A stretch of DNA of 64,000 nt from an uncultured Pseudomonadota bacterium (GTDB lineage Bacteria > Pseudomonadota > Alphaproteobacteria > RF32 > CAG-239), in contig CASFRM010000006.1 of the NCBI GenBank assembly GCA_949297185.1, positions 16,374 through 80,373 of the forward strand, in the 5' to 3' direction. The notes below the pieces were generated by a model. The model was not told the origin of the DNA. It was given only the letters and a program-made list of their open reading frames with translations, and searched no databases. Position 1 is the stretch's first letter. Every line of letters begins with the position of its first letter. Below are positions 5,580-35,244 of this stretch, piece by piece. Made by a program: the position numbers and the translations under genes.

Positions 5580-8500
5580 CTATCTGGCGTTTGCGTTTCC
5601 TTTCAAATTATAAGTGCCGCCATGTGGTTTGTTTGACTTTCCGCGAGGTAGAGGCGTTCTCGATGTATCACGAGCCGCTGTCAACTTTGCATGTTCGGCA
5701 TTATTCTTTCCTATTGACGCAATTTCGGTAAAATGACGCAGTGTCATATCCTTAGTTGCCAGCGGCTTTCCGTCATAAGACAAGTTTGTTTTCCAAGCTG
5801 TCTCTCTGGTAGAATTTATATACTCCATCCCTTTTTTAGTTTCTGCAGAGCCTTTAGAATCATTGAGAGGTTCGGTTGCATAACCAACCTCTTTTTCAAA
5901 AGTATTCCATCTTGTTTCAAGGTATATGCCGAAAGATGCCTCTGCATTTTCTTCTTTCCATTCGTTTTGTACTAAAGATTTGTAACGGATACGCTCAGAT
6001 TCGTTTGGCTTAATACCGTGGACTACTTTATATTCACGATCAAGCATTTCATTTATGGATGAATCTGTATACTCCGGCAAAGCTTTAGCCTCCTGATGCT
6101 CCGGCAAAGCTTTAGCTTCCTGATGCTCAGGTAGAGCCTTTAGTTCTTTCACAGGTTTAGGAGGATTTGGCGGAATAACAGGATCTTCGCGCTCATCTTT
6201 GTTTTTGCGTTTTCCGTTAGCTCCCATAATAACATTCAAAAATTTGCTCTTAGCAGAGGTCCAAACCTTATCAAACGTAACGGTAAACGGAATAAAGCTG
6301 TGTTGTTCGGCTTTAGAGAATTGGTCAAACCTTTCATGATGAGCTTCTTCCGGAATATTAATAATTTCTTTTCCGGCCGCACCACCGGCATAGGTCGTAA
6401 ACACGGTTCCTTTACCACTTTCAGCATGTACCATTTCTCCTGCTTCATTTGCAGTTGCATTACGAGGCAAGACCCCATCATGATGAACCGGCGCGTTATC
6501 AACATGTCCTACTTCATTGTTTGCCGAAACCAGATTATCAAGTTTGGCGATAGTTTCCATAACCTCAGGAGTGAGTTTTTTAGGAATTAAATTACCATTT
6601 TCGTCAGTTATTGCTGCTACAGCTTTAATTTCTTCCGAACTAAAGCCGTATTTGCTACACCATCCTTCACCAAACACTTTGTGGTTTCCGTTTACTTCAA
6701 CCGGAGTATTACTGTTGTCAACATGGTTGAGGTTTGTATCGACCTCGGCATTGACCATCTGAGCTCCGCAATCACCTGCAATCAACAAAGCACGGTGTAC
6801 ATCAACGGCTTGTTCAGGGTGTGAAGCATTCCATTGTTCAATAGTACTCTGAGCCGCATTAACATTATTCTCCAGCAAATCAGGAACATCTTTGGTCCAT
6901 CTTTCCAAAATATCTTGAGCTTTTTCGGTAGCATTATCAAGATATCTGACCTCTGTTTTTGCGGGTTCATCAATTATTTTTACGCCATTTGCATCATCCG
7001 CATTAGTTTCTGAGCGAATAATGCCGTCTTCGGCAAGACTTGCATCATCTCTACCTAACAAATTAACGGCATCTTCTTTAGTAATGGGTTCTTTTAGAAC
7101 TCCGTTTTCATTAAGCTCATCAGGAGTCATGTTTTTATAATCATTTAACTCCTCGCCCGTAACCACGGTTTTGGTATAACTTGCATCATTAGGATCGTAC
7201 TCATCGGCTCTGACTTGTCTGGTTCCGTGTTCTCCCCACAAATCAAGCGATACATTATTCAGATGTTCTGATGCCAAGTTAACTCCGTACGATAATCCCA
7301 TGCCGCTTAATACGGCAGTACCGGTAGAAAGGGATGAGTTTGTGACAGATTTCAAAATAGCCTTACCCCATTTATCTCCGGCTTTTCTATTGTTGTGAAC
7401 TCCTTTGATAACCGATGTTGCAAAACCAAAAGCCATCATACCATAGCGAGCTGCTGCCTGCATACCATGTTCGGCAATTTTACCTCCGAACACAATTGCC
7501 GTGGTTGTTGCCGCGGTCATCAAAATCTCAGGAGATTTTTGCAATAGGAATTTACCAAAGAATTTTAATCCCTTCTCCTTAGATGCTTTCCGCTCTTCAA
7601 TATAGGATCTTGTTAATCTGTAAATAGCTTGAGTAGCATAAACACCGGCATAAATTTGTGAGCCAAGTCCCGGTACTCCCAAAGCCAAACCGGCGGTATT
7701 GCAACCGATTCGCAAAGCTTGGTTAAGAGCTTGGGCTCCCATATTTTTAGCCATCATTTTACCGAAAGTTCTGACAACCTCATAAGATTTGCCGAAACGA
7801 GCAATACAAGTCTTATCAATTTTAGCTATTGGAGCATACATTTTGCTCAAAACCGGAGCAGCACGATTTTTAAGGTGAGCCTTTCCGGCCAAGCGATTCA
7901 AAAAGCTGACATGGTTGTTAACTGTTGCAGCTTGAAAAGCTGCCAACCCTTTATCGGAAATTGGCTCATTACTGTTTAGTGCTTTTCCTATAGCCTCTCT
8001 GCGTTGTTCATCGGTAGCATTTTCCGGCAAATTGGCAAGAGCATCAGTTGATTTTAGAGTATTAATATATGTTCCGGTAACCACTTGCAGTTGATTTTTT
8101 AATTCGTCGGCAAGGGCTTGCTTATCCTTACCATATGCGGCTACAGCTGCATTTCTGACTGCTGTTAATTTAATGGTTTCAATAAATGTTTCTTTTTTCT
8201 TATCAGCATCGGGATTTTCAAAATTCAAGCTCTGAAACCAGGTTCCGGTTTCTGCAAACCAAGTTTCATTTTGCTTTTTATCGTTAACATCGATATTTTT
8301 AGCAATTTCCCAAGCGTCATCAAAAGCCTCTTCAAGCTTTTTGTCATCGCCTTCTTTTACATCGACCAAGCCATTTATTCTGTCATAATTATCAATGGTC
8401 TCGTTCATGCGATTTCTGGCAGCATTAAGCTTATTAGCCAAATCCTGTCTTACATTTTCCGGCAAGCGAGAGAGGTTGTTTTCTATATAATCGAACATCT

Positions 8501-11528: not shown

Positions 11529-11693
11529 ATTCTCGGGACACCATACATACCTACCTCCTCGGACACCACACATAAAGTCATCCTCGGATTTATTCCGTGG
11601 GGCTACCATATGTCGTCATCCTCGGATTTATTCCGAGGATCTCATACGCTATAGCACATTGTTTCATTAGATTCTCGGGACAAGCCCGAGAAT
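11529..11693. repeat. Cluster of short palindromic hairpin repeats (GTCATYCTCGGR-loop-YCCGAGRAT family)
   Basis: gtcatcctcggatttattccgaggatctca at 11614-11644, a degenerate copy at 11577-11602, and attctcgggacaagcccgagaat at 11671-11693. The same family occurs at 34178-35244. Confidence 0.75.
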
Positions 11694-11700
11694 AACTGGT

Positions 11701-13431
11701 CTAGAATGTACTCAGTATACTTTGTGCTGATTGAGAGGCAAGAGATAGGGAATTAATTGCTAACTGTTGACGCGTTTGCAAAGTGAGATATTGTGCCGAA
11801 GCCTCGTTCATATCGGCCAAGGTCAAATTATCGGCTCCGGTTTCCAACACATCGGTTAGAGCCTCGGTAAAATTAATACGGGTTTTAATTATTGAATAAT
11901 GATTGCCGAGTTCCTCTTGAAACGAACGGATTGAATTAACCGCTTTGGTTATTTCTTCCAACGACTTTTTAATTGCCGAGGTGTCAAACAAATCCCTAGT
12001 TTCTAACCCCAGCGACATACTATCAGCCAAAACACCGGCAATGCTGTATTTATTAGAACGACTTTCGTTAAAAGTAACTTCTAAATTGCCGCCCTTAAGC
12101 AGATTAATTCCCTGATACGAGCTGTCGTTCAATAAGTTGTCATATTCTTCCAATATTTTTTTGTATTGCTCGGCATAGTTATTTTCTTTAACCTCAAAAG
12201 CTTCTTCCAACTGTTTTTCTAAGGTACTTACAAAATCCGCCGAGTTTTTACTGTCTTCTTTTTTGGTCATAAATTGATCGTAATCGCCATTGGTTATAGT
12301 CGGCACGGTAACAGTTTGCCTAGCTACCCAATGAGACATAGCTACAGCATTTTTATTGGCTAAGTAAAATTCGGTGTTTATACTAACCACACTAGTGGGG
12401 TCTGAAAATTTGATAGCTGCACCAAATTTGGAAATAGCATATATGTATGCTGAAATTGTACAGTCTTTCACAAAATTTATTCCTGCAGCACCACCACCTT
12501 TGGCCTCAAGATTAAAAACTCCAGCAATTGATGATGATGTTATTTGAGCACAATGAGCACCTCCTCCAATAGTTGAAATATTACATTCTCCTACAAAACT
12601 TGAAGCATTTAACCACATTCCACTTCCATTTCCGAAGGTTTTTATATTTGTTGTTCCAGAAAAAACAGAACTAACTACATTTATACCTATTGCAACATAA
12701 CCATTTGTTGTAGCATTTAAATTACCACTAGCATTACTTTTTGACAAGTACACGGCATTTGCTCTGTCACCAGTTGTATTAATATTAATGTTATCAAAAT
12801 TTACCGTTGAATTACTTATGCTAACACAGTTTGAACTGTATACACTTAACGAATTAAGATTAACCGTGATATTTTGCAATGTGCATCCATCTTGCACAGT
12901 AAGCATACTATAAGTTTTGTTGGTATTATCTGTTCTTGTAAAATTCAAGCTGACATCTTGGGTTAGGCCGGCGAGGGTTTTGCCTTTAGTGAGGGTTATG
13001 GTTTCATTATCGGCAAAGGTCAAAGATTGAGTAACCACAATTTTATCAATATTACTGTCAGCAATAGCGGCTTTTAATTCCTCTACTGTTGATACTCTAG
13101 TATAGTCGCTAAAATCATATTTGACATTGCTTGCCGCCTTATTAACTACCGCGGTTGCTTGCTCCAAAAATTCCGCTCCCGAAGTCAAACCTTGGGTTGC
13201 AGCTTCAATAGTTTGGATACCTTGCCCCATCGCATCTAAAAGAGCGGTCAAATCAGCCGCCCGATTGGTCAGAGAGCGCGCTTGGTAATAGCTGGACGCA
13301 TTGTCTATCGCCGAGTTCACTTCCTTTCCCGTCGCTAAAACAAGCTGAGTTTTATCCATTTGTTTGGATATATTTCTCAAACTTAGCAAATTATTGCGCA
13401 TTGAGGCGTTTAAGGTGATGTTGTTATTCAT
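11701..13431 (-). CDS. Flagellin-like protein with a large non-flagellin central domain
   Basis: The N-terminus (ITLNASMRNNLLSLRNISKQMDKTQLVLATGKEVNSAIDNASSYYQARSLTNRAADL) and C-terminus (ADMNEASAQYLTLQTRQQLAINSLSLASQSAQSIL) look like flagellin D0/D1 helices of the alphaproteobacterial flagellin-like (DUF1522-type) group. The middle ~300 aa is rich in N/S/T/G/I/V periodic strands. Confidence 0.72.
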   Translation of the reverse strand: MNNNITLNASMRNNLLSLRNISKQMDKTQLVLATGKEVNSAIDNASSYYQARSLTNRAADLTALLDAMGQGIQTIEAATQGLTSGAEFLEQATAVVNKAASNVKYDFSDYTRVSTVEELKAAIADSNIDKIVVTQSLTFADNETITLTKGKTLAGLTQDVSLNFTRTDNTNKTYSMLTVQDGCTLQNITVNLNSLSVYSSNCVSISNSTVNFDNININTTGDRANAVYLSKSNASGNLNATTNGYVAIGINVVSSVFSGTTNIKTFGNGSGMWLNASSFVGECNISTIGGGAHCAQITSSSIAGVFNLEAKGGGAAGINFVKDCTISAYIYAISKFGAAIKFSDPTSVVSINTEFYLANKNAVAMSHWVARQTVTVPTITNGDYDQFMTKKEDSKNSADFVSTLEKQLEEAFEVKENNYAEQYKKILEEYDNLLNDSSYQGINLLKGGNLEVTFNESRSNKYSIAGVLADSMSLGLETRDLFDTSAIKKSLEEITKAVNSIRSFQEELGNHYSIIKTRINFTEALTDVLETGADNLTLADMNEASAQYLTLQTRQQLAINSLSLASQSAQSILSTF

Positions 13432-33584: not shown

Positions 33585-34152
33585 AGATTTTTATATGTTT
33601 CGTCATGGCGAAACCGACTACAACAAAGAAGGCAGATGGCAAGGATGCGGAGTAGATTTACCGCTAAATGCCAACGGTGTCAGCCAAGCCGGAGTTTTAG
33701 CCGAGAAGTTAAAACCGTTGGGTTTAGAGGTAATATACTCTTCTCCTTTACAAAGAGCTCTTGAAACAGCACAAATAGCGGCAGCACCGCAGCACCTAAA
33801 AGTAATACCTCTGCCCGAACTACGCGAAGGATGTTTAGGTGTTTGCGAAGGTATGCTAAAAGAAGATATTGCCGCCCAATACCCAAAGTTGTGGCAAGAA
33901 TGGTACGGCGATGAAATAAAAATGGATACCAGATGGCCGGGCGGCGAAAGCAAACTCGAGATGCAACAGAGGATGTTCAAGGGATTTGAAAAGATGCTTT
34001 CGGCCAAAGAAAATGTAATCGGGGTTGCCTCACATAGTGGTTCAATGCGTTATTTCTTATTAGCCTTTGGCTATGGTCCGCACAAAATGCCTAACACATC
34101 ATTGTTTCATATCGTGTGGGAAGACGGCAAATGGAGCCTTAATCAAGGCTAG
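33577..34152 (+). CDS. Histidine phosphatase family protein (phosphoglycerate mutase-like)
   Basis: RHGETDYN catalytic motif and SPLQRALETA. 8-nt overlap with murI. Confidence 0.8.
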   Translation: MRKDFYMFRHGETDYNKEGRWQGCGVDLPLNANGVSQAGVLAEKLKPLGLEVIYSSPLQRALETAQIAAAPQHLKVIPLPELREGCLGVCEGMLKEDIAAQYPKLWQEWYGDEIKMDTRWPGGESKLEMQQRMFKGFEKMLSAKENVIGVASHSGSMRYFLLAFGYGPHKMPNTSLFHIVWEDGKWSLNQG

Positions 34153-34177: not shown

Positions 34178-34500
34178 GTCATTCTCAATGATGTCTTATT
34201 TTCATGTCATTCTCGGGCGGTGTTTTTTTATTGTCATTCTCGGGCTTGTCCCGAGAATCTCATTAAGGAGTCAAGTTTTGCGAGACCCTCGGAACGAGTC
34301 CGAGGGTGACGATAAAAAAGAAATGTCATTCTCGGGCGGTGTTTTTTTTATGTCATTCTCGGGTGGTGTTTTTTTATTGTCATTCTCGGGCTTGACCCGA
34401 GAATCTAATAAGTTTTAGGCACGGTCATTTTCAGCCTTGTCCCGAGAATCTCATAAGTTTTAAGCCCAATCATTCAAAGACCTTGACCCGAGAACCTAAT
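34178..34500. repeat. Array of short palindromic hairpin repeats upstream of the GIY-YIG gene
   Basis: Unit A is GTCATTCTCGGGCTTGTCCCGAGAATCT, unit B is GACCCTCGGAACGAGTCCGAGGGTGACGA, and half-units are GTCATTCTCGGGCGGTGTTTTTTTAT. At least 8 units are present. Confidence 0.9.
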
Positions 34501-34517
34501 AGATATAAAACAGCAAT

Positions 34518-34805
34518 ATGAAGAACATGTATGTTTACATAATGAGTAATAAGCCGAATGGTACATTATATATTGGTGTAACTAATGATTTATGTCGTCG
34601 AGTTTATGAGCATAAAAATAAACTGATAGAAGGATTTACAAAGCGATACAATCTTAATATTCTGGTCTATTATGAAGTATTTGACAGTGAAATACAGGCC
34701 ATACAACGCGAAAAGAACTTAAAACACTATACACGACAATGGAAACTTAATCTGATAAATAGTATAAATCCCGAGTGGAAAGATTTATATGATTCCATAC
34801 AATAG
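34518..34805 (+). CDS. GIY-YIG nuclease family protein (small UPF0213-type)
   Basis: 95 aa. MYVYIMSNKPNGTLYIGVTNDLCRRVYEHKN...REKNLKHYTRQWKLNLI is the classic GIY-YIG / URI-domain signature. Confidence 0.9.
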   Translation: MKNMYVYIMSNKPNGTLYIGVTNDLCRRVYEHKNKLIEGFTKRYNLNILVYYEVFDSEIQAIQREKNLKHYTRQWKLNLINSINPEWKDLYDSIQ

Positions 34806-34839
34806 GCCAAGCATTTATTGTTACTTTGGTTGTGTTTTT

Positions 34840-35244
34840 TTTATTGTTATTCTCGGGCGGTGTTTTTTTATTGTCATTCTCGGGCTTGACCCGAGAATCT
34901 AATAAGTTTTAGGCACTGTCATTCTCGGGCTTGTCCCGAGAATCCATAATGAATAGACCCTCGGAACAAGTCCGAGGGTGACGATTATGTGGTGTCCGAG
35001 TGTGATGATAAAAAACAAATGTCATTTTCAGCCTTGTCCCGAGAACCTCATAATGAATAGACCCTCGGAACAAGTCCGAGGGTGACGAGAAAAAAGAAAT
35101 GTCATTCTCGGGCTTGTCCCGAGAATCTCATTAAGGAGTCAAGTTTTGCGAGACCCTCGGAACGAGTCCGAGGGTGACGATTATGTGGTGTCCGAGGGTG
35201 ACGATAAAAAAGAAATGTCATTCTCGGGCTTGTCCCGAGAATCT
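34840..35244. repeat. Array of the same hairpin repeats downstream of the GIY-YIG gene
   Basis: At least 10 A/B-type units. The 80-bp block 35101-35180 is identical to 34233-34312. The last hairpin abuts the patatin stop codon. Confidence 0.9.

What the first reader, a model, noticed from the sequence alone, without database searches (positions are those of the whole stretch)
34178..35244. GIY-YIG nuclease gene sits between perfect 80-bp direct repeats within dense hairpin-repeat arrays: a possible nuclease/repeat mobile module
The 95-aa GIY-YIG gene (34518-34805) is flanked on both sides by at least 18 short palindromes of two interleaved types (GTCATTCTCGGG-CTTGW-CCCGAGAAT and CCCTCGGA-ACRAG-TCCGAGGG). 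An 80-bp composite block is 100% identical at 34233-34312 and 35101-35180, giving direct repeats ~870 bp apart that enclose the gene. Small GIY-YIG proteins of this type recur next to GTCAT...-type hairpin repeats in many genomes (my recollection, not checked). To my knowledge, a functional link has not been established. Such a link could be the nuclease nicking or mobilising the hairpins, or the hairpins acting as homing or insertion sites. The perfect repeats suggest recent mobility or recombination.
Basis: partly seen in the sequence, partly recalled or inferred. Interest (0 to 1): 0.62.

Follow-up and report, generated by a model that had tools for sequence, protein, structure and literature searches.

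The report
Ssn nuclease inside its hairpin repeats
A tiny DNA-cutting enzyme gene sits in the middle of arrays of the short DNA hairpins it most likely recognises; this pairing (Ssn nuclease plus its hairpin repeats) was described in Neisseria in 2025, so this is a new example in an uncultured gut bacterium, not a new kind of system.

Summary
A 95-aa single-domain GIY-YIG gene (34518-34805) lies in a 1.09-kb intergenic array of two related tagged hairpins. It is enclosed by an 82-bp perfect direct repeat (34232-34313 / 35100-35181) and an inner 109-nt repeat (93%).

That is out of date. Chenal et al. 2025 (PMC11893778) showed that such small GIY-YIG proteins (Ssn family, cd10448) are site-specific ssDNA endonucleases. 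They bind exactly this kind of hairpin (NTS/SRM) and cut a few nt upstream, and their genes typically sit between SRMs.

- Both hairpin types here fit the published SRM motif: 28 genome hits vs 1-5 in shuffles.
- Type A differs from Neisseria NTSvar by one compensated base pair and the first tag base.
- Across 91 homologue loci I found 61 SRM hits vs 1.4 expected.
- The repeats are also CGTC-tagged REPs, the class said in 2013 to lack a dedicated enzyme. The genome has no RAYT.

The flanking direct repeats are array units, not target-site duplications. A second strain with an identical protein differs by whole-unit indels.

Extras: polar tandem "half-SRMs", and SRM arrays at the stop codons of 7 of about 10 large flagellin paralogues.

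Verdict: new member of a known kind. Mobility is unproven.

The parts
34518..34805 (+). ssn gene: 95-aa single-domain GIY-YIG nuclease (Ssn family candidate)
   Evidence: ORF. Pfam PF01541 E=2.5e-16. Y7, Y18, G20, R28 and E65 are invariant among 12 homologues. Homologues at 53-67% identity in other phyla are flanked by NTS/SRM hairpins.
34232..34259 (+). SRM type A hairpin (TGTC tag, 9-bp stem ATTCTCGGG, 5-nt loop, 3' C). Further perfect copies at 34378-34405, 34872-34899, 34917-34944, 35100-35127 and 35216-35243.
   Evidence: ssDNA fold -9.0 to -9.3 kcal/mol, z -5.7 to -6.3. Fits the published SRM motif.
34284..34311 (-). SRM type B hairpin (CGTC tag, stem ACCCTCGGA, loop CTYGT, 3' C). Further copies at 34956-34983, 35060-35087 and 35152-35179, all on the minus strand.
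   Evidence: Fold -10.6 kcal/mol. Matches the SRM motif.
34423..34450 (+). Decayed type A copies with a mutated 5' arm. Others at 34469-34496 (the copy in the canonical position about 20 nt before the ATG) and 35020-35047.
   Evidence: Sequence read. The copy at 34469-34496 no longer folds (-0.9 kcal/mol; 46 of 200 shuffles as good).
34205..34231 (+). Half-SRM units (tag + 5' arm + CGGTG + T-run, 27-nt period, no 3' arm). Others at 34324-34350, 34351-34377 and 34845-34871. A 5'-arm fragment lies at 34178-34190.
   Evidence: The unit does not fold (0 kcal/mol). Each lies directly 5' of a full type A copy or of another half unit.
35182..35205 (-). Half-B unit (minus strand ATCGTCACCCTCGGACACCACATA). 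It is the only difference between the two otherwise identical 106-nt blocks. A decayed copy lies at about 34986-35009.
34232..34313 (+). Outer direct repeat, left copy: an A(+)/26-nt linker/B(-) dimer. The right copy is 35100-35181, 100% identical, 868 bp away.
   Evidence: family D5. Other dimers in the genome are only 75-82% identical to it.
34342..34450 (+). Inner direct repeat, left copy (half-A + A + linker + A). The right copy is 34836-34944, 93% identical, 494 bp away.
   Evidence: family D1.
11576..11696 (.). Second SRM array of the same family in the window. It ends 5 nt from the stop codon of a large flagellin paralogue (11701-13431, minus strand).
   Evidence: G000:C6:27949-28069. 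Flagellin ends.

Best explanation
The gene encodes an Ssn-family nuclease. This family consists of single-domain GIY-YIG proteins that act as site-specific single-stranded-DNA endonucleases. The surrounding hairpins are its cognate Ssn-related motifs (SRMs). In the older REP nomenclature they are CGTC/TGTC-tagged REPs arranged in BIME/NIME-like mosaic arrays.

Inferred mechanism, by analogy with the four enzymes characterised in 2025: when DNA is single-stranded (incoming transforming or conjugative DNA, replication or recombination intermediates), the tagged strand folds into the 9-bp hairpin. The roughly 95-aa monomer binds stem sequence plus the C just 3' of the stem. It reads the GTC tag 5' of the stem and hydrolyses the strand a few nt upstream, here in the T/A-rich leader. 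dsDNA, RNA and the complementary strand would not be cut.

What is shown here: domain, size, conserved catalytic positions, motif fit, genome-wide repeat family, association across phyla, and absence of a RAYT.

What is inferred: binding and cleavage, and the biological role. The most likely role is trimming SRM-bearing ssDNA and so shaping recombination around SRM-flanked genes. ComEC and DprA are present, and SRM arrays abut hypervariable flagellin genes.

The 82-bp perfect and 109-nt repeats that enclose the gene are array units recently duplicated or homogenised by slippage or unequal recombination. They are not transposition scars.
For: Protein. It is 95 aa with only a GIY-YIG domain. Y7, Y18 and E65 are invariant. 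They sit one residue off the Y6, Y17 and E64 whose mutation kills the 94-aa SsnA.

Hairpins.
- Both types match the published SRM search sequence: 28 hits in the genome vs 1-5 in 20 shuffles.
- Type A (TGTCATTCTCGGG-N5-CCCGAGAATC) differs from NTSvar of N. wadsworthii (CGTCATACTCGGG-N5-CCCGAGTATC) by one compensated base pair and the first tag base.
- The C after the stem and the GTC before it, the positions critical for SsnA binding and cleavage, are conserved in all full copies.

Association.
- In 91 homologue loci from many phyla there are 61 SRM hits vs 1.4 in shuffles. They typically lie as SRM(+) just before the ATG and SRM(-) just after the stop. Several are within 1 mismatch of the Neisseria NTS.
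- G035 shows the exact SRM(+)-ssn-SRM(-) layout.
- The congeners G022, G018, G004 and G003 carry species-specific tagged hairpins on both sides of their ssn.
- The second paralogue on C14 has its own pair of tagged hairpins.

REP class. The repeats fit the CGTC-REP definition: tag CGTC or TGTC, 8-9-bp stem, 4-5-nt loop, mostly Alphaproteobacteria, no dedicated transposase. The genome has no Y1/RAYT transposase.

Array dynamics. Another strain has an identical protein and only 2 synonymous changes, but a 45-nt unit and a 28-nt half unit are missing and a different run of half units follows.
Against: - No sequence of a characterised Ssn was available, so homology to SsnA is indirect. I could not run the cd10448 assignment.
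- NCBIfam gave no family above cut-off. The only PDB relative is a UPF0213 protein at E=4e-5.
- The SRM copy in the canonical position just before the ATG is decayed and no longer folds.
- By my scan, 6 of the 11 relatives' ssn loci fetched (10 congeners plus one from another family) show no tagged hairpin within 1.5 kb. Congeners with ssn have 0-2 SRMs of this geometry. So ssn presence does not by itself predict repeat expansion.
- Activity and role are untested in this organism.
Confidence: 0.85

Rival explanations
1. SRM-ssn-SRM is a selfish, autonomous mobile cassette. The gene-less SRMs and SRM dimers are its non-autonomous derivatives (REPIN/MITE-like). Ssn nicking drives both its own movement and the amplification of the repeats. 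This is compatible with family membership; it differs on what the system is for.
For: - ssn lies in at least 6 different genomic contexts among the 11 relatives examined.
- In G004 it lies next to the same patatin gene but in the opposite relative orientation.
- G000 has an ssn-less SRM array where G003 and G008 carry ssn.
- The SRM expansion is specific to this species: 22-29 copies vs 0-2 in congeners.
- Arrays turn over quickly between strains.
- The IS-like layout was noted by the 2025 authors.
- No other candidate enzyme is present: no RAYT.
Against: - GIY-YIG nucleases hydrolyse DNA and are not known to rejoin strands.
- No target-site duplications or empty-site/filled-site pair were found.
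- The direct repeats around the gene are ordinary array units.
- There are only two ssn copies, 59% identical to each other, so there is no recent burst of the gene itself.
- The variable contexts could reflect ordinary rearrangement in a genus whose orthologues are 60-80% identical.
Confidence: 0.2
2. The hairpins are ordinary REP-like elements acting as RNA stabilisers or terminators at gene ends, and the nuclease gene sits among them by coincidence.
For: All 18 repeat loci are intergenic and most lie between convergent genes. This is typical of REPs. 16 of 18 loci have no nuclease gene.
Against: The same gene-hairpin pairing recurs across phyla far above chance and was shown biochemically. 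The closest homologue, in G022, is flanked by the only two perfect CTCGGG-N5-CCCGAG hairpins of that genome.
Confidence: 0.05
3. A free-standing GIY-YIG homing endonuclease that cuts a dsDNA site and spreads by gene conversion, with the repeats as its homing sites.
For: It has a GIY-YIG domain. There is a weak sub-threshold match to the group I intron endonuclease model (23.6 bits vs cut-off 56).
Against: Homing GIY-YIG enzymes carry a C-terminal DNA-binding domain and are about 200-250 aa. This protein is 95 aa with the catalytic domain only. There is no intron or intein context.
Confidence: 0.02
4. The perfect 82-bp repeat is an assembly artefact of a short-read metagenome bin.
For: The genome is a 44-contig draft. 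Five of the 18 repeat loci lie within about 1.3 kb of a contig end. The second strain's contig breaks inside the arrays.
Against: The two copies have different unique flanks and differ by a clean one-unit indel. An independent assembly reproduces the gene plus about 160 nt of array on each side at near identity.
Confidence: 0.05

Closest known systems
Ssn nucleases with NTS/SRM hairpin repeats (SsnA of Neisseria meningitidis; CDD cd10448; Chenal et al., Nat Commun 2025, PMC11893778)
   Same: - A roughly 94-95-aa single-domain GIY-YIG protein with conserved Tyr/Tyr/Glu.
- The gene is embedded between oriented hairpins carrying an HGTC tag, an 8-9-bp stem, a 4-5-nt loop and a C after the stem.
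- Hairpins are dispersed in intergenic clusters and lie next to surface-antigen genes.
- Hairpin type A is nearly identical to NTSvar.
   Different: - Two hairpin classes (A, and B with sub-variants) are strictly interleaved in opposite orientation.
- There are only about 52 copies, not hundreds.
- The proximal canonical SRM has decayed, and the gene is flanked by direct rather than inverted array units.
- Tandem half-SRMs are abundant.
- The host is an uncultured gut alphaproteobacterium.
- No biochemistry has been done for this member.
CGTC-tagged REPs (Di Nocera et al. 2013, PMC3733652), including Neisseria dRS3/NIMEs and Rickettsia RPE-4/RPE-6
   Same: - Tag CGTC or TGTC, 9-bp stem, 5-nt loop and a short tail.
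- Predominantly alphaproteobacterial.
- Head-to-head dimers and clusters between convergent genes.
- No RAYT associated.
   Different: The 2013 paper concluded that these repeats lack a dedicated enzyme. Here, as shown in 2025, a GIY-YIG gene sits within them. The type B stem starts AC rather than AT.
REP/BIME (REPIN) elements with RAYT tyrosine transposases (Nunvar 2010, PMC2817692; Bertels and Rainey 2011, PMC3116915)
   Same: Works alike in outline: a single-copy enzyme gene flanked by the tagged ssDNA hairpins it recognises, with the hairpins amplified genome-wide in alternating orientation.
   Different: The enzyme fold and chemistry are unrelated: a hydrolytic GIY-YIG against an HUH/Y1 enzyme with a covalent intermediate. 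The tag is GTC(A), not GTAG. No PF01797 gene is present in this genome. Not a member.
GIY-YIG homing endonucleases (I-TevI, Seg proteins)
   Same: The catalytic domain fold.
   Different: No DNA-binding domain, no intron or phage context, and the expected substrate is ssDNA hairpins rather than a dsDNA site.

Membership tests
Ssn nuclease family (cd10448) | Small (about 90-100 aa) protein consisting only of a GIY-YIG domain | tested here: met
   95 aa. PF01541 covers residues 4-78 and there is no other domain.
Ssn nuclease family (cd10448) | Catalytic Tyr (GIY), Tyr (YIG) and metal-binding Glu conserved (Y6, Y17, E64 in SsnA) | tested here: met
   Y7, Y18 and E65, plus G20 and R28, are invariant in 12 homologues. 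The correspondence to SsnA is by position (offset +1), not by direct alignment.
Ssn nuclease family (cd10448) | Gene flanked by Ssn-related motifs fitting HGTCWYN(0-2)YYVSBRHN(0-5)WNVSBRGN(0-2)RNCYNB | tested here: met
   Five strict matches lie in the ssn-flanking array (one upstream, four downstream of the gene), and six more full copies (type A) miss only the last motif position. Genome total is 28 vs 1-5 in shuffles.
Ssn nuclease family (cd10448) | Assignment to CDD cd10448, or blastp E<1e-10 to N. meningitidis SsnA | not testable with these tools
   No CDD library and no SsnA sequence were available, and the paper's supplements are not held. Indirect support: homologues at 53-67% identity are flanked by hairpins within 1 mismatch of the Neisseria NTS.
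Ssn nuclease family (cd10448) | Binds and cuts only ssDNA, strand-specifically, a few nt 5' of the hairpin | not testable with these tools
   Needs purified protein and oligonucleotides.
CGTC-tagged REPs (Di Nocera 2013) | Unpaired CGTC (or TGTC/CCTC) tag at one end, 8-9-bp stem, 4-5-nt loop, short tail | tested here: met
   Type A: TGTC + 9 bp + 5 nt + CTN/CCA tail. Type B: CGTC + 9 bp + 5 nt. Definition.
CGTC-tagged REPs (Di Nocera 2013) | Repeated, intergenic, mostly as oppositely oriented dimers downstream of genes | tested here: met
   About 52 copies at 18 intergenic loci. Ten of the 14 loci with both flanks known lie between convergent ORFs. A and B are in opposite orientation.
REP-RAYT (REPtron/REPIN) systems | A Y1/HUH transposase (PF01797) flanked by GTAG-tagged REPs | tested here: not met
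   There is no PF01797 match in the genome, while the control genomes respond. The tag is GTC(A), not GTAG.
GIY-YIG homing endonucleases | N-terminal GIY-YIG domain plus a C-terminal DNA-binding domain, in an intron, intein or phage free-standing context | tested here: not met
   95 aa with the catalytic domain only. TIGR01453 scores 23.6 bits against a cut-off of 56.

The most novel reading that the evidence does not exclude
The polar tandem 'half-SRMs' may be footprints of an Ssn-dependent copying process. Each consists of tag + 5' arm + loop followed by a T-rich stretch, with a 25-29-nt period. They always lie directly 5' of a full hairpin, and they are gained and lost between near-identical strains and between the two otherwise identical 106-nt blocks here.

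On this reading Ssn would be the long-missing enzyme that amplifies CGTC-type REPs, not only one that cuts at them. Alternatively, the half units provide several alternative 5' arms for one 3' arm, giving a ladder of cleavage sites. That fits the published finding that split hairpins and enlarged loops are still cut.

Combined with SRM arrays at the stop codons of most hypervariable flagellin paralogues, the system would set the boundaries of recombination tracts for flagellar antigen variation in a gut symbiont.
Probability: 0.15. Interest if true: 0.65.

Novelty: new member of a known kind. Interest (0 to 1): 0.3.

Why it matters
It files a suspected 'new nuclease/repeat module' under the Ssn/SRM system published in 2025. 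It extends that system to an uncultured gut alphaproteobacterial genus in which each species carries its own hairpin variant.

It also joins two literatures. The repeats are CGTC-tagged REPs, which a 2013 survey said had no dedicated enzyme.

The enzyme-hairpin pairs here offer new specificities for a family of interest as ssDNA tools. These are type A, type B, and the G.A-mismatched variants of congeners.

Three side observations are cheap, testable leads on what Ssn systems do outside Neisseria and on whether they build their own repeats:
- half-SRM tandems
- rapid unit turnover between strains
- arrays abutting flagellin paralogues

Tried and rejected
- RAYT/Y1 transposase as the partner enzyme: no PF01797 match in the genome.
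- Literature search pairing GIY-YIG with 'repetitive extragenic palindromic': 0 papers. The link surfaced only with the term CGTC.
- Strict hairpin patterns in congeners gave near-zero counts. At first this looked like absence of repeats. Reading the loci showed species-specific variants, some with tandem G.A mismatches or bulged stems, that the patterns miss.
- Assigning the two paralogues to two lineages by a tree: unresolved, because the protein is short and most forks have support under 80.
- NCBIfam gave only a sub-threshold intron-endonuclease match. The PDB holds only a distant UPF0213 relative.
- Direct alignment with characterised SsnA: no sequence was accessible and the supplements are not held.
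I used an exact-protein look-up instead, which gave one 606-bp contig from another sample.
- Reading the 82-bp repeats as target-site duplications: rejected. They are A/B dimers, the common array unit, and arrays without any gene show the same 80-116-nt periodicities (family D2, C13:76601-76878).
Full report
OBSERVATION

The window is G000:C6:16374-80373 of a 1.51-Mb, 39% G+C, 44-contig draft genome. Earlier notes of this scan call the organism an uncultured gut alphaproteobacterium.

Two convergent genes bound a 1,090-bp gap. A histidine-phosphatase gene ends at 34152 and a patatin-like phospholipase gene ends at 35243 on the minus strand. The gap holds one ORF, 34518-34805 (+), of 95 aa. Pfam sees only a GIY-YIG catalytic domain, PF01541, E=2.5e-16, residues 4-78.

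The perfect direct repeat exists. It is 82 bp, 34232-34313 and 35100-35181, 868 bp apart. A 109-nt repeat of 93% identity (34342-34450 / 34836-34944) lies immediately around the gene. The identical stretch is in fact 106 nt: 34232-34337 equals 35100-35229 except for a single 24-nt insertion in the right copy.

ANATOMY OF THE REPEATS

- Type A, on the + strand, is TGTC-ATTCTCGGG-CTTGW-CCCGAGAAT-C.
- Type B, read on the - strand, is CGTC-ACCCTCGGA-CTYGT-TCCGAGGGT-C.
- Each has an unpaired GTC-containing tag, a 9-bp stem, a 5-nt loop and a C after the stem.
- As single-stranded DNA they fold at -9 to -10.6 kcal/mol, and none of 200 shuffles does as well.

In the gap there are 6 perfect A copies, 4 perfect B copies and 3 decayed A copies. 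There are also about 6-7 units that are not palindromes: tag + 5' arm + loop, followed by a T-rich stretch instead of the 3' arm. So 'at least 18 palindromes' overstates the number of true hairpins.

A(+) and B(-) alternate. A 26-nt linker separates them tail to tail and an A-rich spacer of about 15 nt separates them head to head. This is the BIME/NIME type of mosaic.

GENOME-WIDE PICTURE

The family occupies 18 intergenic loci with about 52 tagged hairpins. These are type A (about 29 copies), type B with stem ACCCTCGGA, and a B variant with stem ATCCTCGGA. No locus overlaps a long ORF. Ten of the 14 loci with both flanks known lie between convergent genes. Five of the 18 lie within about 1.3 kb of a contig end, so the true copy number is probably higher.

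There are only two GIY-YIG paralogues: this one and C14:7937-8215, which is 59% identical. The C14 copy has its own pair of unique tagged hairpins upstream, CGTCATCCCGAACTTGTTTCGGGATC and CGTCATGCTGAACTTGTTTCAGCATC. The genome has no Y1/RAYT transposase, although the control genomes respond to the same search.

WHAT IT IS

A literature search with the tag sequence led to two papers.

Di Nocera et al. 2013 (PMC3733652) defined CGTC-tagged REPs. The tag is CGTC or TGTC, the stem 8-9 bp, the loop 4-5 nt, and they occur mainly in Alphaproteobacteria. Neisseria dRS3 and Rickettsia RPE-4/6 are members. The authors concluded that these repeats 'apparently lack a dedicated transposase'. The repeats here fit that definition.

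Chenal et al. 2025 (PMC11893778) then established four things:
- Small single-domain GIY-YIG proteins (cd10448, now called Ssn) are encoded between such hairpins. The hairpins are called NTS in Neisseria and SRM in general.
- SsnA of N. meningitidis (94 aa) binds the hairpin only as ssDNA and only on the tagged strand, and cuts a few nt upstream.
- Y6A, Y17A and E64A abolish cutting. The C just after the stem matters most for binding, and the three nt before the stem matter most for cutting.
- 71% of homologues have at least one SRM nearby, and 42% have one on both sides.

TESTS MADE HERE

Motif fit. The published SRM search sequence hits 28 sites in this genome against 1-5 in 20 shuffles, and nearly all hits are A or B copies. 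Type A differs from NTSvar of N. wadsworthii (CGTCATACTCGGG-N5-CCCGAGTATC) by one compensated base pair and the first tag base. One alphaproteobacterial homologue locus (L024) carries NTSvar exactly.

Catalytic positions. Y7, Y18, G20, R28 and E65 are invariant in 12 homologues.

Association across phyla. I examined the 80 best together with 11 loci from related genomes. In these 91 loci there are 61 strict SRM hits against 1.4 in shuffles, and 32 loci have at least one. The usual layout is SRM(+) ending 5-50 nt before the ATG and SRM(-) starting just after the stop. Several hairpins are within one mismatch of the Neisseria NTS. The complete genome G035 shows this layout exactly.

Limits. I could not align the protein with a characterised SsnA or run CDD. 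NCBIfam and the PDB gave nothing decisive. Membership therefore rests on size, domain, catalytic positions, motif fit and the behaviour of homologues. Enzymatic activity is inferred.

COMPARATIVE GENOMICS IN THE GENUS

Eleven of the 25 sampled genomes of the genus (this one included) have a homologue, 56-71% identical to the window's protein. The type A pattern is essentially confined to this species: 29 copies against 0-2 in congeners.

Congeners carry their own variants next to ssn:
- G022: GTCATGCTCGGG/GTCACTCTCGGG hairpins on both sides, the only two perfect ones in that genome.
- G018 and G004: stems with tandem G.A mismatches.
- G003: bulged stems.

In G004 ssn lies 152 bp beyond the 3' end of the same patatin gene, but in the opposite relative orientation. 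The racemase and phosphatase genes are not between it and the next shared gene. Overall the 11 loci fall into at least 6 different contexts. This is compatible with movement or with frequent rearrangement at hairpin arrays. I found no empty-site/filled-site pair or target duplication that would prove transposition.

THE DIRECT REPEATS

The 82-bp block is an A(+)/linker/B(-) dimer, the standard building block. Other dimers in the genome are 75-82% identical to it. The two copies around the gene are therefore a recent local duplication or conversion event.

Arrays without any gene show the same 80-116-nt periodicities (family D2, C13:76601-76878).

A second strain supports rapid turnover. It is ENA sample ERZ16268202, a 606-bp scaffold.
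- It encodes the identical protein with only two synonymous changes.
- It lacks one 45-nt A unit upstream. The deletion joins the loop of one copy to the 3' arm of the next.
- It lacks one 28-nt half unit downstream.
- It then continues with at least three half units where the window has a full A.

The arrays therefore change by whole units on a very short timescale. This supports 'recent recombination' but says nothing about transposition. One caveat: both assemblies are short-read.

HOW IT MOST LIKELY WORKS

Shown: a GIY-YIG gene of Ssn type sits inside arrays of hairpins that satisfy the Ssn recognition motif.

Inferred by analogy: on single-stranded DNA the tagged strand folds. The monomer binds the stem plus the 3' C, reads the GTC tag and cuts in the T/A-rich leader a few nt upstream.

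Possible role. ComEC and DprA are present, and a type IVb pilus and a T4SS lie next door. Trimming of SRM-bearing incoming or recombining ssDNA, as in Neisseria, is therefore plausible but untested.

Selfish element versus domesticated host system. I put about 0.2 on the fully selfish, self-amplifying reading.

SIDE OBSERVATIONS

Half-SRMs. At least 20 type A half units occur genome-wide. Each lies in tandem (25-29-nt period) directly 5' of a full A copy and in the same orientation. Half-B units behave alike, and one is the only difference between the two identical 106-nt blocks. Similar half units accompany SRMs at ssn loci in Deltaproteobacteria, Saccharibacteria, Dehalococcoidia and others: 33 half units against 61 full copies. 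The main text of the 2025 paper does not mention them. It does show that a 5' half plus a separate 3' half is still cut.

Flagellin paralogues. Seven of about ten large flagellin paralogues have an SRM array starting within about 10 nt of the stop codon. These paralogues are 580-690 aa, with conserved ends and hypervariable middles. This echoes NTS clustering around antigenic surface genes in Neisseria. The arrays may have been copied along with the genes, so these are not independent events.

VERDICT

The feature is real and its parts belong together, but it is an instance of the Ssn/SRM system described in 2025, in a new host and with its own hairpin variants. Novelty: new member of a known kind. 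Interest: about 0.3, mostly for the half-SRM and flagellin leads.

Noticed in passing
G000 genome-wide, e.g. window 34324-34377; C5:59790-59875; C13:76491-76573; C23:7944-8021 and 8212-8294: At least 20 'half-SRM' units (tag + 5' arm + loop, then about 10 T-rich nt, no 3' arm) stand in tandem with a 25-29-nt period. Each series lies directly 5' of a full type A hairpin in the same orientation. Similar units occur at ssn loci of other phyla (33 half vs 61 full). The main text of the 2025 Ssn paper does not describe them.
   Followed up: partly
window 11576-13431; also G000 C2:57217, C11:43232, C12:19891, C13:9674, C14:about 256-309, C32:1190: Seven of about ten large flagellin paralogues (580-690 aa, near-identical N- and C-termini, hypervariable middle) have an SRM array beginning within about 10 nt of the stop codon. 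The small flagellins (C11:260-1321, C20, C41) have none.
   Followed up: partly
G000 C14:7937-8374 and C14:8389-10374: The second ssn paralogue (59% identical) has two single-copy tagged hairpins upstream. It sits next to a 661-aa ORF with a DPPY motif, which looks like an N6-adenine DNA methyltransferase. This suggests a restriction-modification neighbourhood.
   Followed up: no
G000 C5:64321-64560 versus L006 (G003) and L008 (G008): G003 and G008 carry ssn a few hundred nt beyond the 3' end of the orthologue of the C5:64625-65233 gene, which has an outer-membrane beta-barrel-like C-terminus. At that position G000 has an SRM array without ssn.
   Followed up: partly
L004 1394-1483 and 1788-1819 (G004); L003 1341-1978 (G018): The SRM variants of these congeners keep the TGTC/AGTC tag and the 3' C but carry tandem G.A/A.G mismatches in the stem (e.g. 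ATCCTGAGC...GCGAAGGAT). The published degenerate motif and simple hairpin scans miss them.
   Followed up: partly
L006 1330-1441 and 1843-1938 (G003): The G003 ssn is flanked by two repeat blocks, X and Y, on the same strand but in swapped order: X-Y on one side and Y-X on the other. Block X is a bulged tagged hairpin (CGTCATCCCACCAAATCGCCAGATTTGGTCAAGGGATC).
   Followed up: no
G000 contig ends (C3:69-173, C14:303-347, C33:157-262, C32:1195-1262, C39:7884-7983): Five of the 18 SRM arrays lie within about 1.3 kb of a contig end. The assembly probably breaks at SRM arrays and at conserved flagellin ends, so SRM and flagellin copy numbers are underestimates.
   Followed up: no
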